From sequence record PZ026127.1: a stretch of DNA of 64,000 nucleotides; one strand, written 5' to 3'. The notes beneath the pieces were generated by a model. It saw nothing but the letters and a program-made list of their open reading frames with translations. It was not told the origin of the DNA and did no database searches. Position 1 is the first letter of the stretch. Each line of letters opens with the position of its first letter. Positions 57,271 to 63,533 of the stretch are shown here, piece after piece. Source of the DNA: a phage. The position numbers and the translations under genes are program-made.

Positions 57271-58404
57271 ATGGCTTATACCGTAGATATGGCTCCTTTG
57301 GCGGCTACGGCCGTTATTGGAGCAACAACCAATTTCACTGCGACCGGTTCCGGTGCTGCAGCTGAAGGTACCGAATCATTTGTCTGGACCGTTGATGGCG
57401 TTCCTCAATCTTCTGTGACTGCTGCAATGGATTATGTTGCTGTTGGCCCAGCAGGCAGCAAGACTATTAAAGTTGTTGCAACAACTACACCAGCGGACGG
57501 CGAACCAGAAACAGCTGAAGCCGAAACAACTTTAACTATCCAGAATAAAACAATGCCTGCTATTACATTGACTTTAGACCCTGCCTCTGTTTCTAAAGAA
57601 GTCGGCCAATCTCAAGTTGTTACTGCTAACGTGACGGGTGCGCCTGCTGGTGCAACAATTGCTTATGTTTGGAAACGTAACACTAGCGTAATCCCAGGTC
57701 AAACTGGTAAAACTATTACTGTTACCGAATCAGCAGAAGCAAATTATACATTGAACTGCGAAGTTACTGTTTCTGCACCCGATTATAATAATGGCACCGC
57801 AACTAAAGGAGCGGCGGTAACTTTTGTTAAGAAAACTATGTCGGGTGTTTCTGTTAATTTAACGCCAGCCTCTATTAATGTACCTGAAGGAACTCCGGCT
57901 TCTTTTAAAGCGGACGTAGTCGGCGCTCCTGCTGGTGCTACTTTTGCCTATTCTTGGAAGAAAGACGGTTCTCCTGTAGTTGGCACCACGGATACTCTAG
58001 CAATCGATACAAGCACTGAAGGTTCACAGGTTATTGAAGTTTCTGTTGTGGTTTCGGCGACTGATTATAACCCGGTGACTGTTACAAAAACTGGTAATGT
58101 AACAATCACGGCTAAAGTCGCTCCTGAACCAGAGGGCGAATTACCTTACGTTCATCCGCTACCAGTTCGCAATTCGGCTTATATCTGGTGTGGTTGGTGG
58201 GTTATGGATGAAATCCAGAAAATGACTCTTGAAGGCAAAGACTGGAAAACAGATGACCCGGATAGCCCGTATTATTTGCACCGATACACGCTTCAAAAAA
58301 TGATTACCGACTATCCAGAGGTTGATGTACAAGAATCTCGTAATGGTCGAATTATTCATCGCACCGCTTTAGAAGCTGGTATTATATACGATTACGTTTA
58401 CTAA
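57271..58404 (+). CDS. hoc: Hoc highly immunogenic outer capsid protein
   Basis: 377 aa (T4 Hoc 376 aa); Ig-like repeats; C-terminal VTVTKTGNVT.TAKVAPEPEGELPYVHPLP.R.SAYIWCGWWVMDEIQKMT.EGKDWKTDDPDS.YYLHRYTLQKM near-identical to T4. Confidence 0.9.
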   Translation: MAYTVDMAPLAATAVIGATTNFTATGSGAAAEGTESFVWTVDGVPQSSVTAAMDYVAVGPAGSKTIKVVATTTPADGEPETAEAETTLTIQNKTMPAITLTLDPASVSKEVGQSQVVTANVTGAPAGATIAYVWKRNTSVIPGQTGKTITVTESAEANYTLNCEVTVSAPDYNNGTATKGAAVTFVKKTMSGVSVNLTPASINVPEGTPASFKADVVGAPAGATFAYSWKKDGSPVVGTTDTLAIDTSTEGSQVIEVSVVVSATDYNPVTVTKTGNVTITAKVAPEPEGELPYVHPLPVRNSAYIWCGWWVMDEIQKMTLEGKDWKTDDPDSPYYLHRYTLQKMITDYPEVDVQESRNGRIIHRTALEAGIIYDYVY

Positions 58405-59839: not shown

Positions 59840-59845
59840 ATGATA

Positions 59846-59868
59846 AAGGGACCTTACGGTCCCTTTTT
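59846..59868 (+). terminator. intrinsic terminator after rnlB
   Basis: GGGACC-TTAC-GGTCCC followed by TTTTT. Confidence 0.65.
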
Positions 59869-61150
59869 AGTTTTTATCCAATGGGGGAAGTTTTACACCA
59901 AGATAAGAACTCAATTGACTTTGATTAGCCATTTTATCCATATCCGCCCCATCGATAATACGAGCTTCTTTGTCGTCTTTAGCGACAGTATAAGGATTCG
60001 CAGTCAATGCATATCGAGCCAATAAAGATATGGTAGGTTGCAATGAATCCGGGTCTACAATAACCTTGAATTCACCTACTGAAGTATCACCTTCATCATC
60101 AACCTCTTCGAGCCCTTCCGTATAAGGCGCATAATACAAAGATGCGACCGTCTGCCCTTCACCCATCCAGGCATTTACACCGACAATAACATAATCACAC
60201 GGACTATTCATATCAGCATAAAGTGGTAGACCATTTTTAAGTATACCATAAGCTAATTCGTCTTGGTCTTCTTTTTTCTCAACCCAACCGGATGCAGCGA
60301 GAATAGCAGCACAACGAGAAGAAGCTACTGCATAAGTACCTGCAAACGAAGTCTGGCGTTGAACAGCAGAATTCATTTCACACATATAGTAATACAAGGT
60401 ACGCGCTCGGTCTTGGGCGTTATCATATTGTGGGTCTGTTAAGTTCAAGACACCTTTCTCAGAAACTCCTTCGACTTTAAAACGAGAACTTACCGTAATT
60501 AAGGACTGTAATACGTCTTTATTAATTTCTTCAGCCATTTGAATAGCCAAAATATTGTCTATAAAGTCTGGTGCATTAAACCCGTTGGATTCTAAATCCT
60601 GGGCCAGTTCCACAGTCAAAGAAGTTTTAAGTTTACGCGATTTAACTTCAGTCTGCCACTTATCAATGCGGAACCCTGCTTCAGCAATCTCAGGATGGCC
60701 TTTTTCAAATTTATTGGTAAAGGCTGCATCAGACATCATACGAATATGGCCTGCTGCAATAGCTTCTGAAATAACTTCACTCAAATCGGTTTCAGTTGTT
60801 CCTGCAAACGGAGAAGCTTCTAATACCTTGAAAACCACACTTTCGAATTGGAACATATCACCAACAGCATATGCTTCATCTTTATCGGTGAACTCTGGAA
60901 TGTTTTTACGTTCAAACATACCAATTTCGCCCGCAAAAGTGGCTCCACCGAGATAAGTCATTTTATCGTCTGGGTTTAAAACACGGACACCATATAATGC
61001 TGCAACAGGTTGAGTAGTTTTTTGTTCAGCAACAAGGGCTTTAAAAATTCTTTTATTAGTTGCCTGGGTATATGAAAGAAGATTAGGACGGGCGACCTGG
61101 TTGGCCGCCGTCAAAGTTGATTCTTGTATTAATGCATTAATCTTTTTCAT
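59867..61150 (-). CDS. second gp24-like capsid vertex protein (divergent paralog)
   Basis: 427 aa; shares gp24/gp23-fold motifs with the adjacent gene (SRKLKT.LTVELAQD.ESNGF.AP.F...LLA..MA.EINKDVLQSLITVS, PYTVAKDDKEARIIDG) but with many substitutions. Confidence 0.8.
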   Translation of the reverse strand: MKKINALIQESTLTAANQVARPNLLSYTQATNKRIFKALVAEQKTTQPVAALYGVRVLNPDDKMTYLGGATFAGEIGMFERKNIPEFTDKDEAYAVGDMFQFESVVFKVLEASPFAGTTETDLSEVISEAIAAGHIRMMSDAAFTNKFEKGHPEIAEAGFRIDKWQTEVKSRKLKTSLTVELAQDLESNGFNAPDFIDNILAIQMAEEINKDVLQSLITVSSRFKVEGVSEKGVLNLTDPQYDNAQDRARTLYYYMCEMNSAVQRQTSFAGTYAVASSRCAAILAASGWVEKKEDQDELAYGILKNGLPLYADMNSPCDYVIVGVNAWMGEGQTVASLYYAPYTEGLEEVDDEGDTSVGEFKVIVDPDSLQPTISLLARYALTANPYTVAKDDKEARIIDGADMDKMANQSQLSSYLGVKLPPLDKN

Positions 61151-62431
61151 TTATGCCTCGTAAATAATTGGAGGAAGTTTAACACCAAGCAGATAAGACA
61201 TGTTACTCTGGCCTGCCATTAAATCCATATTAGTTGCGTCTATAACACGAGCTTCTTTATCATCTTTAGCAACGGTATACGGGTTTGCTGAAAGTGCATA
61301 ACGAACCATCAGAGAAATAGCCGGTTGCAAACTATCAGGGTCTACAATAACTTTATAGGCGCCAACATGTTCTTGGTCGTCTAAATCCAGACCTTCGGTA
61401 TACGGAGCATAGAAAATAGAACCAACTACTTCATTACCACCGTAATCTTCTTTAACGCCTACGATAACATAATCTAAAGGACTATTAACATCACAGAATA
61501 CAGGCAATCCGTTAATCAAATAACCATAAGCAGTTTCTGGGAGCCAAGCTTCATCTTCAGGTTTGTGTTTCAACCAACCTGAACCAGCGAGCATCGCAGC
61601 AACACGACTAGATGCGACAACAAACGTACCTGAATAAGAAGTGGTTTTCTGAATTTCAGAATTCATCTCACAAACCATTTCGTATAATTTACGTGCAGAT
61701 TCTGGAGCACTGTCATAAGACAAATCGACAATACCGTTATCAGACACACCAGTAACTTTATAGCGTTTAGATACAGTTATTAGAGACTGCAGAACGTCTT
61801 TATTAATTTCATCAGCCATTACAGTGGCTAAAAGGTCTTCTAAGAACGCAGGGGCGTCGAAGCCATTAGATTCCATGTCTTGGGCTAGTTCTACAGTCAA
61901 AGCGGTTTTAAGCTTACGGGACTTAACAGGGGCGTTCCATTTATTAACCTGGAATACTGCATTGCTAATTTCAACATCACCTGCTTCGAATTTTTCTGTG
62001 TGAGCCGCATCAGGAACCAGACGACATGTTAATGACACTAAACCTTCTTGAAGAGCATCAGCCAATTCTGTGGCGCTAGTGGACGCGAGTGGGCTTGCTT
62101 TAAGAGCCTTATAAACCACATTCTGGTACTTGAAATATTCACCCTGAGCAATCGCCTGGGCCTTATCTGTGAGTTCTGGGATAGTTTCACGGTCTTTAGA
62201 ACCAACTTCACCACCATAAGAGGCACCTGTCTGGAAACTAAATTCATTATCAGGGGTAAGATATTTGACACCATACAGTGCAGCAATAGGCTGGCTAGTA
62301 CGTTGTTCGGCGATAATATCACGGTAAATCAATTTGGTTGTAGCACGGGTCAAAGCAACAAGATTAGGGCGACCCAATGAGTTGCTGGAAGTAGTTGTTG
62401 ACTCGCGCAGTAATTCGTTAATCTTTGCCAT
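61151..62431 (-). CDS. 24: capsid vertex protein gp24
   Basis: 426 aa; N-terminus MAKINELLRESTTT.SNS.GRPNLVALTRATTKLIY and C-terminal region closely match remembered T4 gp24 (427 aa); late promoter upstream. Confidence 0.85.
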   Translation of the reverse strand: MAKINELLRESTTTSSNSLGRPNLVALTRATTKLIYRDIIAEQRTSQPIAALYGVKYLTPDNEFSFQTGASYGGEVGSKDRETIPELTDKAQAIAQGEYFKYQNVVYKALKASPLASTSATELADALQEGLVSLTCRLVPDAAHTEKFEAGDVEISNAVFQVNKWNAPVKSRKLKTALTVELAQDMESNGFDAPAFLEDLLATVMADEINKDVLQSLITVSKRYKVTGVSDNGIVDLSYDSAPESARKLYEMVCEMNSEIQKTTSYSGTFVVASSRVAAMLAGSGWLKHKPEDEAWLPETAYGYLINGLPVFCDVNSPLDYVIVGVKEDYGGNEVVGSIFYAPYTEGLDLDDQEHVGAYKVIVDPDSLQPAISLMVRYALSANPYTVAKDDKEARVIDATNMDLMAGQSNMSYLLGVKLPPIIYEA

Positions 62432-62459
62432 TGCGCTTTCCTTATTGAGGGTATATGTT

Positions 62460-62467
62460 TATTTATA
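62460..62467 (-). promoter_or_regulatory. late promoter of gene 24
   Basis: TATAAATA on minus strand upstream of gene 24 start (62431). Confidence 0.55.
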
Positions 62468-62517: not shown

Positions 62518-62799
62518 ATGAGGAGATTAAAAATGAACAAGTTAAACTTTATTCGTACTACTCTTTCCGCTCTTGATAAAGACATCAAAGCTCTGGTAGA
62601 AAAATTCGGTAACAATCCTAATGGTAATGCAGTGAATGCCTTAGTTAAGAAATACGAAGCCATGGCTTATGCTACCGACTTCTGGTGGAACGGTGAATAC
62701 TCTACCCATACCAAAGACAAATCTGGTAACTGGCTGAAAATCCAAGAAAATCGTATTGACTTCCGTGATATCATCAACCGTCGTGTCAAAGCAGCGTAA
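62518..62799 (+). CDS. hypothetical early protein
   Basis: 93 aa; RBS GAGGAGA; own early promoter. Confidence 0.5.
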   Translation: MRRLKMNKLNFIRTTLSALDKDIKALVEKFGNNPNGNAVNALVKKYEAMAYATDFWWNGEYSTHTKDKSGNWLKIQENRIDFRDIINRRVKAA

Positions 62800-62802
62800 A
62801 AT

Positions 62803-63474
62803 ATGAATTATTTAATTTACAAAATAACCAATCTCATTAATAACAAGATTTATGTTGGAGCTCATGCCACTACAGATGTTAACGATTCTTATATGGGCTC
62901 CGGGGTTAACATAGTAAAATCCATAAAGAAATACGGTTTAGAGAATTTTAAAAAGGAAATCCTTTTCAATTTCGAAACATCTGAAGAGATGTATGCTAAG
63001 GAAGCCGAACTAGTTGACGAGGCTTTTGTCATGAGAACGGATACTTATAACGCAGCCTTAGGCGGCAAGGGTAATCCTGTTATAGTAGCTTTACAGGAAC
63101 CTGGGTATCGTGAGATGTTATCCGAAAAGACAAAAGCCGGCATGACTGAAGAAGTACGAGCAAGACTTTCAAAAATGAAAATGGGTATGAAATATTCTCA
63201 AGAAACCCAAGACAAAAAATCAAAAGCTATGAAAGACCTCTATAAAACTAAAAGCCATCCCAGAACCGGTAAGAAACACAGCGAAGAATCCAAGGCTAAA
63301 ATTAGAGCGGGTTCTAATAAAGGTCAAAAGATTGTTTTTGTTGATATTATGATTAAAGGTCTTAAATTCTCCCATTATGATGATGCAGCAAAACATTTTA
63401 ACGTGAGCGCCAAAACCATCCGTAATTGGATTAAAGAAACTAGACCACAATTTGCAGATTGCTATAAGGTGTAG
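62803..63474 (+). CDS. segD: free-standing GIY-YIG homing endonuclease (SegD-like)
   Basis: 223 aa (T4 SegD 223 aa); N-terminal YLIYKITN...KIYVGAH GIY-YIG motif, repeated K/S-rich NUMOD-like middle, C-terminal DNA-binding-like region; sits between genes 23 and 24 as segD does in T4. Confidence 0.75.
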   Translation: MNYLIYKITNLINNKIYVGAHATTDVNDSYMGSGVNIVKSIKKYGLENFKKEILFNFETSEEMYAKEAELVDEAFVMRTDTYNAALGGKGNPVIVALQEPGYREMLSEKTKAGMTEEVRARLSKMKMGMKYSQETQDKKSKAMKDLYKTKSHPRTGKKHSEESKAKIRAGSNKGQKIVFVDIMIKGLKFSHYDDAAKHFNVSAKTIRNWIKETRPQFADCYKV

Positions 63475-63484
63475 AAACAAGAAT

Positions 63485-63502
63485 GGGAGACCGAAGTCTC
63501 CC
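63485..63502. terminator. hairpin between convergent segD and gene 23
   Basis: GGGAGAC-CGAA-GTCTCCC; weak U-tract on either strand. Confidence 0.4.
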
Positions 63503-63533
63503 AAATAATTTTAAGAATTAATAACTTATGTTA

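What the first reader, a model, noticed from the sequence alone, without database searches (positions are those of the whole stretch)
59867..62431. Tandem duplication of the capsid vertex gene 24
Two adjacent minus-strand ORFs (426 and 427 aa) with no intergenic gap both have the gp24/gp23 fold signature. The upstream copy (61151-62431) closely matches remembered T4 gp24 at both termini. The downstream copy (59867-61150) is clearly homologous but substantially diverged, for example MKKINALIQESTLTAANQVARPNLLSYTQATNKRIFKAL versus MAKINELLRESTTTSSNSLGRPNLVALTRATTKLIYRDI. T4 has a single gene 24 forming the pentameric vertices. A second diverged paralog could mean heterogeneous or specialised vertices, or a vertex variant used under particular conditions.
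Basis: partly seen in the sequence, partly recalled or inferred. Interest (0 to 1): 0.65.

Follow-up and report, generated by a model that had tools for sequence, protein, structure and literature searches.

The report
Known paired capsid vertex genes 24a/24b
This T4-like phage carries two adjacent, diverged copies of the capsid corner (vertex) protein gene; the pair is real and both copies look functional, but it is a standard, already annotated feature of JS98-like phages whose structural role has not been worked out.

Summary
Two abutting minus-strand ORFs, 61151-62431 (426 aa) and 59867-61150 (427 aa), are full-length gp24-type vertex proteins that are 56% identical to each other.

The window is a Dhakavirus, 96-97% identical in DNA to IME08, IME281 and JS98. 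GenBank has annotated this pair as genes 24a and 24b since the JS98 record. About 119 of 1419 gp24-bearing phage records carry two copies. These include Dhakavirus, Gaprivervirus, Gelderlandvirus and Marfavirus records; the protein search adds Erwinia phage FBB1 and metagenomic relatives.

New here:
- The pair has the signals of one late operon: a single TATAAATA, stop and start codons that abut, and one terminator. This layout recurs in all 13 two-copy loci examined, except that IME08 has an inserted gene where the terminator sits.
- Both copies keep the protease-cleavage residues Glu10|Ser11 and are under strong purifying selection (dN/dS 0.02-0.07).
- All 24b proteins form one old clade that lies outside the canonical gp24 clade containing T4.
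- 24b is uniquely altered in its N-terminal arm.
- Same-genus relatives (MX01, SP18) have a single gp24 with a 96-99% identical gp23.

The most likely reading is a conserved two-component vertex. Its arrangement in the capsid is untested.

The parts
62460..62467 (-). T4-type late promoter motif TATAAATA upstream of 24a; the only one for the pair
   Evidence: One search gives this as the only match between 59867 and 62560. One search finds the same motif at the same distance in all 13 two-copy loci and none inside any 24a. This is a motif match only; chance expectation for the whole window is 7.1 against 9 found.
62436..62443 (-). Ribosome-binding site AAGGAAAG for 24a
   Evidence: Read directly. 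GGAAAG is conserved in 11 of the 13 two-copy loci; the two metagenomic loci have GAGAAG.
61151..62431 (-). Gene 24a: canonical capsid vertex protein, 426 aa
   Evidence: It is 98-99% identical to JS98 and IME08 24a and 69-70% identical to T4 gp24.
62402..62431 (-). 24a propeptide (residues 1-10, MAKINELLRE), predicted to be removed by the prohead protease gp21 after Glu10
   Evidence: The mature T4 gp24* chains 5vf3_a and 8gmo_A start at query residue 11. E10 and S11 are invariant in 37 aligned gp24 proteins. The cleavage itself is inferred.
61156..61159 (-). Shine-Dalgarno GAGG for 24b, lying inside the last codons of 24a (tac GAG Gca taa ATG)
   Evidence: GAGG is conserved in the Dhakavirus, Gaprivervirus and Gelderlandvirus loci.
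59867..61150 (-). Gene 24b: diverged capsid vertex paralog, 427 aa
   Evidence: It is 99% identical to JS98 24b. The AlphaFold model (pLDDT 71) is closest to T4 gp24 in the capsid, 5vf3_a, with TM 0.69-0.71.
61121..61150 (-). 24b propeptide (residues 1-10, MKKINALIQE), with the Glu10|Ser11 residues retained
   Evidence: E10 and S11 invariant. The cleavage is inferred.
59845..59866 (.). GC-rich hairpin AAAGGGACC-GTAA-GGTCCCTTT directly after the 24b stop; a two-way terminator shared with the convergent rnlB gene
   Evidence: One search reports it on both strands. A hairpin directly follows the 24b stop in 12 of the 13 two-copy loci; the exception is IME08, where an inserted gene follows.

Best explanation
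Genes 24a and 24b form a conserved two-gene vertex-protein cassette of JS98-like T-even phages.

Expression (read from sequence signals, not measured): the signals fit one late promoter transcribing both genes. 24b would then be translated by coupling to 24a, because its start codon abuts the 24a stop codon and its Shine-Dalgarno sequence lies in the last codons of 24a.

Proteins (shown by sequence and model): both are full-length gp24-type proteins with the HK97 fold plus the insertion domain. Both keep the residues Glu10|Ser11 at the gp21 cleavage site. Both have been held under strong purifying selection since before these genera diverged.

Roles (inferred): 24a is the ortholog of T4 gp24. 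24b descends from one ancient duplication and has since been reshaped, mainly in the N-terminal arm and first insertion-domain linker. Both proteins are most likely built into the prohead and processed there. 24b most likely forms its own pentamers at a subset of the 11 non-portal vertices, rather than mixing freely with 24a.

The second protein is an optional elaboration. Same-genus phages with a practically identical gp23 lattice protein manage with a single gp24.
For: - Anatomy: one TATAAATA before 24a, none inside it, abutting stop and start codons, and a terminator after 24b. The same layout is found in 13 loci from several genera and metagenomes.
- Family and fold.
- Cleavage-site residues E10 and S11 are invariant in 37 sequences.
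- Selection: dN/dS is 0.02-0.07 for each copy across Dhakavirus, Gaprivervirus and Gelderlandvirus pairs. Synonymous sites between 24a and 24b are saturated (pS 0.68), and no window of 30 codons shows a gene-conversion tract.
- Age and unity: all 24b proteins are monophyletic (100% bootstrap), whereas 24a proteins are never monophyletic (0%). The canonical clade that contains T4 and every 24a excludes 24b at 100%.
- Even the deepest 24b-type proteins (65-69% identical) sit as 23-24a-24b tandems.
- Own-interface argument: 29 fixed 24b-unique substitutions lie at sites where 24a and all nine single-copy gp24 proteins agree, against 8 such sites for 24a. Ten of the 29 fall in T4 residues 1-72. 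In T4, residues 26-29 pair with the insertion-domain linker of the neighbouring subunit of the same pentamer, and residues 11-20 lie on the adjacent gp23 hexamer (PMC9546572).
- Optional status: MX01 (Dhakavirus) and SP18 and RZ (Gaprivervirus) have one gp24. Their gp23 is 96-99% identical to that of two-copy relatives, and no gp23 column separates one-copy from two-copy phages.
Against: - There is no direct evidence that either product is in the virion. I found no proteomic or structural study of a two-copy phage in the held papers or the PDB.
- In T4 all 55 gp24* subunits are structurally alike, so geometry does not demand two vertex proteins.
- One-copy relatives with the same gp23 show that 24b is not needed to close that lattice.
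- The homopentamer and vertex-subset step rests on where substitutions fall along the sequence, not on a three-dimensional analysis. The enrichment P-values (0.017 and 0.004) are post hoc.
- The 24b model is only moderately confident, and residues 1-33 and 349-362 are below pLDDT 50.
Confidence: 0.55

Rival explanations
1. Redundant or alternative vertex proteins. Either 24a or 24b alone can build all 11 vertices. The pair is kept as bet-hedging, for example against host defences or conditions that disable one capsid protein, and capsids contain whichever protein is available or a random mix.
For: - T4 and about 1300 other records manage with one gp24.
- MX01, SP18 and RZ have one gp24 on a gp23 background 96-99% identical to that of two-copy relatives, with no diagnostic gp23 residue.
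- The locus is exchanged as a cassette between lineages. Gelderlandvirus 24a and 24b are 86% and 84% identical to the Dhakavirus copies, although rnlB next door is only 56% identical.
Against: - Pure redundancy should relax selection on one copy, yet both show dN/dS of 0.02-0.07 over long divergence.
- 24b carries 29 fixed changes at sites otherwise invariant across gp24, which suggests a distinct job.
- In every one of the 16 loci examined, 24b occurs only downstream of a 24a and never alone.
Confidence: 0.2
2. 24b is not a vertex capsomer in the mature head. It has taken on another role in head assembly, for example a prohead-only assembly or size-control factor, an adaptor near the portal, or an anchor for an accessory head protein.
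For: - The most altered part of 24b is the N-terminal arm, which in T4 makes the contacts to neighbouring capsomers.
- The 24b stem branch is long.
- Several relatives carry 'tail fiber-like' or collagen-repeat genes in the same neighbourhood.
Against: - The whole gp24 fold, its length, the Glu10|Ser11 residues and the highly conserved C-terminal half are retained.
- The window and JS98 lack the fibre-like gene at this locus yet keep 24b.
- Coupled translation predicts amounts similar to 24a rather than a trace factor.
Confidence: 0.12
3. Origin by capture rather than duplication. 24b was a foreign gp24 allele, from a Jiaodavirus-like or unsampled lineage, that recombination placed next to the resident gene 24. 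Exchange promoted by a homing endonuclease may have helped.
For: - 24b is not sister to its own 24a and falls outside the canonical clade.
- In the small tree it grouped with Jiaodavirus gp24 at 78% bootstrap, and it is 63% identical to that protein against 56% to T4 gp24.
- Cassette replacement at this locus is demonstrable.
- A segD-type homing endonuclease gene sits next to 24a.
Against: - With more taxa, the 24b plus Jiaodavirus grouping falls to 6%.
- No 24b-type protein was seen as a sole gp24. The 24b-type loci whose genome context was examined, including those at 65-69% identity, are second genes of a tandem pair with the same abutting junction. No donor lineage is therefore known.
- A single tandem duplication explains the constant order and junction.
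Confidence: 0.15
4. Recent duplicate or decaying pseudogene that is specific to this genome.
For: Only the adjacency of the two genes.
Against: - The ORFs are intact in all 13 two-copy loci examined, and about 119 phage records carry two gp24 matches.
- dN/dS is 0.02-0.07.
- The paralogs are 56% identical with saturated synonymous sites.
- The pair is shared across several genera.
Confidence: 0.01

Closest known systems
Genes 24a and 24b of Escherichia phage JS98 (GenBank EF469154; also IME08, JS10; 'capsid vertex protein I/II' of VR5, VR26)
   Same: Same two genes in the same order between gene 23 and rnlB, with abutting stop and start codons. 24a is 98-99% and 24b 99% identical in protein to JS98 and IME08. 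The DNA of the region is 96-97% identical.
   Different: Only strain-level differences. This window, like IME08, IME341 and UP19, has a segD-type homing endonuclease gene between 23 and 24a that JS98 lacks. It lacks the 'tail fiber-like' gene that IME08 has after 24b.
Bacteriophage T4 gp24 capsid vertex protein (PDB 1YUE, 5VF3, 7VRT/7VS5)
   Same: Same family, length and fold. Same propeptide with the cleavage site after Glu10. Same position in the late head-gene cluster, and a late promoter motif.
   Different: T4 has one gene 24, whose 55 subunits fill all 11 non-portal vertices and are structurally alike. Here a second paralog, 56% identical, follows the first.
The older gp23/gp24 paralogy of T4-like phages (hexamer protein and pentamer protein derived from one HK97-fold ancestor)
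   Same: The principle is the same: duplication of a capsid protein gene in the head cluster, followed by specialisation. All three proteins match PF07068 (background in PMC10580926 and PMC3012670).
   Different: gp23 and gp24 are only about 21% identical and have shown roles as hexamers and pentamers. 24a and 24b are 56% identical and their division of labour is unknown.
Single-gp24 allele of same-genus phages (Dhakavirus MX01; Gaprivervirus SP18, RZ)
   Same: Same locus, same flanking genes, and a gp23 96-99% identical to that of two-copy relatives.
   Different: There is one gene, about 69% identical to 24a and about 53% to 24b. It is not a 24a/24b hybrid.
Two-component Family 2B encapsulin shells (PMC11071501 / PMC12407261; PDB 9BIX)
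   Same: Analogy only: two HK97-fold paralogs are co-assembled into one shell (title and abstract seen; a distant fold match).
   Different: It is a bacterial nanocompartment, not a phage head, and there is no meaningful sequence relationship (11% identity).

Membership tests
T4 gp24-type capsid vertex protein (PF07068 family, gp24 branch) | Full-length match to the Gp23/Gp24 family profile | tested here: met
   PF07068 at 331 bits (24a, residues 19-417) and 330 bits (24b, residues 19-419), covering profile positions 3-376 of 376.
T4 gp24-type capsid vertex protein (PF07068 family, gp24 branch) | Closer to gp24 than to the hexamer protein gp23 | tested here: met
   Against PDB sequences, gp24 scores 657 bits (24a) and 502 bits (24b), while gp23 scores about 47 bits.
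T4 gp24-type capsid vertex protein (PF07068 family, gp24 branch) | HK97 fold with the T4-type insertion domain | tested here: met
   The 24b model (pLDDT 71, pTM 0.63) has as best matches 5vf3_a, 1yue and 7vrt gp24 (TM 0.64-0.71), then gp23, then HK97-fold capsid proteins. 24a was not modelled; it is 69-70% identical to 1YUE.
T4 gp24-type capsid vertex protein (PF07068 family, gp24 branch) | N-terminal propeptide removed by prohead protease gp21 after Glu10 | tested here: inconclusive
   The sequence is present in both copies (LLRE|S and LIQE|S). E10 and S11 are invariant in 37 homologs, and mature T4 chains start at residue 11. Actual cleavage cannot be tested here.
T4 gp24-type capsid vertex protein (PF07068 family, gp24 branch) | Late gene in the head cluster downstream of gene 23 | tested here: met
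   The gene order is 23 - orf - segD - 24a - 24b - rnlB - 24.3 - hoc - inh. A TATAAATA motif lies before 24a. The promoter is a motif match only.
T4 gp24-type capsid vertex protein (PF07068 family, gp24 branch) | Forms pentamers at the 11 non-portal vertices of the virion | not testable with these tools
   This needs virion proteomics or cryo-EM. No PDB chain is closer to 24b than T4 gp24.
24a/24b vertex cassette of JS98-like phages | Canonical copy upstream, divergent copy downstream, stop and start codons abutting or overlapping, one late promoter, terminator after the second gene | tested here: met
   for the window. The identical layout is seen in 13 loci, except that IME08 has an inserted gene in place of the terminator.
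24a/24b vertex cassette of JS98-like phages | The downstream protein belongs to the monophyletic 24b clade (signature N-terminal arm RPNLLSYT.ATNKRIF) | tested here: met
   99% identical to JS98 24b. The 24b clade has 100% bootstrap support. The signature is visible.
Pseudogene / decaying duplicate | Disrupted reading frame or relaxed selection (dN/dS near 1) | tested here: not met
   Both ORFs are intact. dN/dS is 0.02-0.07 for both copies, leaving out the saturated Marfavirus comparison.

The most novel reading that the evidence does not exclude
The two paralogs build two structurally distinct classes of pentameric vertex in one prolate head. For example, 24b pentamers could sit only at the apex on the long axis, or only in the ring next to the portal. 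That would make this a natural capsid in which the quasi-equivalent five-fold positions are filled by different gene products. The same gp23 lattice can also be closed by a single gp24 in sister species.
Probability: 0.3. Interest if true: 0.6.

Novelty: already known. Interest (0 to 1): 0.3.

Why it matters
The existence of the pair is ordinary database knowledge. The open part is what two vertex proteins do.

The T4 head is the best-studied prolate capsid and is used as a vaccine and delivery platform. Its corners are thought to need one protein, or none in bypass mutants. A long-conserved and strongly constrained second vertex protein implies some selective benefit at the vertices, such as stability, position-specific geometry or escape from host sensing.

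Nature also provides matched controls: same-genus phages with the same gp23 but one gp24. This makes the question directly testable. None of it changes the verdict that the finding as reported is not new.

Tried and rejected
1. Literature. Ten full-text searches and several paper reads (one search was rejected for a too-short term) found no held paper that discusses two gene-24 copies. The JS98 genome paper (PMC2168658) and the gp24 crystal-structure paper (PMC1129118) are not held. 'No functional study exists' is therefore only 'none found here'.
2. Gene conversion between 24a and 24b: rejected. Third-position identity is 0.2-0.57 in every 30-codon window.
3. The single gp24 of MX01, SP18 and RZ as a 24a/24b fusion. 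A long blastn alignment suggested it. It is rejected: the protein is uniformly closer to 24a and T4 gp24 than to 24b, with no switch point.
4. 24b as sister of Jiaodavirus gp24. This had 78% support in the 29-sequence tree but only 6% with more taxa. It is left unresolved.
5. The 'KHKPED...AYG' indel as a clean marker separating 24b from the canonical clade: withdrawn, because FBB1-type 24b proteins have the long form.
6. Co-adaptation of gp23 to the cassette type: none. No column out of 519 separates one-copy from two-copy phages.
7. A separate late promoter for 24b: none in any of 13 loci.
8. Trees are neighbour-joining on Kimura-corrected distances only. No likelihood program was available, so long-branch effects on the position of 24b cannot be fully excluded. 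24b is somewhat faster evolving: its mean distance to the Winklervirus and Acinetobacter-phage gp24 is 0.695, against 0.608 for the canonical proteins.
Full report
**Observation.** The stop codon of the first (TAA, 61151-61153) touches the ATG of the second (61148-61150). The proteins are 56% identical over their full length. Both match Pfam PF07068 end to end. Both match T4 gp24 (1YUE) at 657 and 502 bits, against about 47 bits for gp23.

**What genome this is, and whether the pair is known.** The 3.5-kb region is 96-97% identical in DNA to Escherichia phages IME08, IME341, IME281, LHE83 and JS98, all of genus Dhakavirus.
- The JS98 record (EF469154) annotates the same two genes as 24a and 24b, 'gp24 head vertex protein'. 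IME08 and JS10 do the same.
- VR5 and VR26 call them capsid vertex protein I and II.
- A tblastn search with the downstream protein finds 1419 phage records with a gp24 homolog and 1538 matching places. About 119 records therefore hold two copies.
- Two-copy loci were inspected in Dhakavirus, Gaprivervirus (VR26), Gelderlandvirus (UoN_LG358_1) and Marfavirus (Klebsiella phages VAC36 and Clarke).
- A search of 5.8 billion proteins adds Erwinia phage FBB1 and metagenomic relatives whose 24b-type protein is only 65-69% identical. Two of these metagenomic proteins were traced to their contigs, and both are again encoded as 23-24a-24b with abutting genes.

**Anatomy.**
- On the minus strand a single T4-type late promoter motif, TATAAATA (62460-62467), and a ribosome-binding site, AAGGAAAG, precede the 24a ATG.
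- No such motif lies inside 24a.
- The Shine-Dalgarno sequence GAGG for 24b lies within the last codons of 24a.
- A GC-rich hairpin (59845-59866) follows the 24b stop directly and also serves the convergent rnlB gene.
- This layout recurs in all 13 two-copy loci compared, including the deepest metagenomic ones. The one exception is IME08, where an inserted gene follows 24b instead of the hairpin.

I read this as one late, bicistronic, translationally coupled operon. That is inferred from sequence signals, not measured.

**Are both copies functional?** Both ORFs are intact here and in every relative examined.
- Nei-Gojobori dN/dS between the window and JS98, IME08, Bp7, JS10, dhabil, VR5, VR26 and the Gelderlandvirus locus is 0.03-0.06 for 24a and 0.02-0.07 for 24b.
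- Between the two paralogs, synonymous sites are saturated (pS 0.68). No 30-codon window shows raised third-position identity, so there has been no recent gene conversion.
- Glu10 and Ser11, the residues flanking the site where T4 gp24 is cut by the prohead protease, are invariant in 37 aligned homologs, including both window proteins.
- An AlphaFold model of 24b (mean pLDDT 71; residues 1-33 and 349-362 are poorly predicted) is closest to T4 gp24 in the capsid (5vf3_a, TM 0.69-0.71). Next come gp23 and then HK97-fold capsid proteins.

The pseudogene reading is rejected.

**Age and origin.** Neighbour-joining trees (Kimura distances, 200 bootstraps) give the following results.
- All 24b proteins form one clade (100%).
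- The 24a proteins never form a single clade (0%). They group instead with single-copy gp24 proteins.
- A canonical clade of T4, Karamvirus, Moonvirus, Kanagawavirus, the SP18-type proteins and every 24a has 100% support and excludes 24b.
- Where 24b attaches relative to Jiaodavirus and phiR1-RT gp24 is unresolved: 78% with Jiaodavirus in the small tree, 6% in the larger one.
- 24b evolves somewhat faster than the canonical proteins (mean distance to the Winklervirus and Acinetobacter-phage proteins 0.695 against 0.608). That is not enough to explain its separation from them (0.663 against 0.405 within the canonical set).

The simplest history is a single old tandem duplication, early reshaping of the downstream copy, and later loss or replacement in many lineages. 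Capture of a foreign allele is a weaker alternative, because no phage examined has a 24b-type protein as its only gp24.

**A dimorphic cassette.** Within Dhakavirus (MX01) and Gaprivervirus (SP18, RZ) some species carry only one gp24. It is about 69% identical to 24a and about 53% to 24b, and it is not a 24a/24b hybrid. Yet their gp23 is 96-99% identical and their rnlB 86-98% identical to those of two-copy relatives. None of the 26 variable gp23 columns separates one-copy from two-copy phages. Conversely, the Gelderlandvirus 24a and 24b are 86% and 84% identical to the Dhakavirus copies, although gp23 is 85% and rnlB only 56% identical. That suggests the pair moves between lineages as a unit. 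The same hexamer lattice can thus be closed either by one gp24 or by the pair.

**Where 24b differs.** Of 99 fixed differences between the two clades, 29 are unique to 24b at positions where 24a and all nine single-copy gp24 proteins agree. Only 8 are unique to 24a in the same sense.
- Ten of the 29 lie in T4 residues 1-72 and eight in residues 320-359. This is post hoc enrichment, P = 0.017 and 0.004.
- Over the first 60 residues 24b is only about 54% identical to any other gp24, whereas 24a, T4, MX01 and Jiaodavirus share 80-88% with one another.
- In the T4 head, residues 11-20 of gp24* lie on the neighbouring gp23 hexamer. Residues 26-29 pair with the insertion-domain linker of the adjacent subunit of the same pentamer. 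All 55 gp24* subunits are alike (PMC9546572).

Changes on both sides of that within-pentamer contact are what one would expect if 24b pairs with itself. This is inference from sequence position only.

**Mechanism.**
- Best explanation (0.55): both proteins are late-made, protease-processed vertex subunits. 24a is the T4 gp24 ortholog. 24b is an old, specialised paralog that probably forms its own pentamers at a subset of the 11 non-portal vertices. The second component is beneficial but not geometrically required.
- Rival, redundant or alternative vertex proteins (0.2). One-copy relatives favour it. Equal and strong constraint on both copies, and the 24b-specific fixed changes, count against it.
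- Rival, a non-vertex assembly or anchoring role for 24b (0.12).
- Rival, a recent duplicate or pseudogene (0.01).
- On origin, capture instead of duplication (0.15). This is a separate axis from function.

**Comparison and novelty.** The feature is a member of the 24a/24b cassette already annotated in JS98-like phages, so it is already known. I found no solved structure of a two-vertex-protein T4-like head, and the best PDB matches for both proteins are T4 gp24. I found no held paper on the function of the pair. The JS98 genome paper itself could not be read. The functional question is open and testable, with natural one-copy controls. It was not opened by this window.

**Limits.** Trees are distance-based. 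Promoter, ribosome-binding-site, terminator and cleavage calls are sequence motifs. Nothing here shows expression or virion incorporation. The two-copy count (about 119) comes from counts of matching places and is approximate.

Noticed in passing
window 62803-63474 (+): A GIY-YIG homing endonuclease gene lies between gene 23 and 24a, on the opposite strand. It is 59% identical to T4 SegD, which sits at the equivalent place in T4. Among close relatives it is present in IME08, IME341 and UP19 but absent from JS98, IME281, Bp7 and most others. It is therefore a mobile insertion next to a locus that is visibly exchanged as a cassette.
   Followed up: partly
L019 (MX01), L020 (SP18), L013 (RZ) compared with L001, L007, L009, L011: The vertex locus is dimorphic within genera. 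Some Dhakavirus and Gaprivervirus species have one gp24, about 69% identical to 24a, in place of the 24a-24b pair. Their gp23 is nevertheless 96-99% identical, and no diagnostic gp23 residue exists.
   Followed up: yes
window 57271-58404 (+): The Hoc head-decoration protein is 377 aa here, against 282 aa in JS98. The difference is one extra immunoglobulin-like repeat inserted after the first one. The C-terminal capsid-binding part is nearly identical.
   Followed up: partly
L002 1870-3057 (IME08); also L008 60-1067 (JS10), L011 54-1355 (VR5), L009 1-1102 (VR26): Several relatives carry a 'tail fiber-like' or collagen-repeat protein gene in the 24b-rnlB-hoc neighbourhood. In IME08 it lies directly after 24b. 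The window and JS98 have no such gene at this locus. Any link to the head or its vertices is unknown.
   Followed up: no
L005 (Gelderlandvirus UoN_LG358_1) compared with Dhakavirus loci: 24a and 24b of this Gelderlandvirus are 86% and 84% identical to the Dhakavirus proteins. The adjacent RNA ligase 2 is only 56% identical and gp23 85%. This hints that the two-gene cassette has moved between genera.
   Followed up: partly
window 62518-62799 (+): A 93-aa ORF with no Pfam match lies antisense between genes 23 and 24a. It is conserved as a 'hypothetical protein' (JS98 orf173) across Dhakavirus and Gaprivervirus, in one-copy and two-copy phages alike.
   Followed up: no
window 63484-63503 (both strands): A second two-way hairpin terminator (TGGGAGAC-TTCG-GTCTCCCA) lies between the end of gene 23 and the end of the convergent segD-like gene. 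It mirrors the terminator between 24b and rnlB.
   Followed up: no
L003 4788-5333 (VAC36), L012 3317-3862 (EnC15), L017 3282-3833 (LC53), L005 4803-5366: Marfavirus, Karamvirus, Winklervirus and Gelderlandvirus loci have an extra gene of about 180 aa between the last gene 24 and rnlB. It is annotated 'DNA recombination-mediator protein' in VAC36 (the PM2 RefSeq record uses 'DprA-like' for a gene beside gene 24) and 'hypothetical protein' in the others. Dhakavirus and T4 lack it.
   Followed up: no
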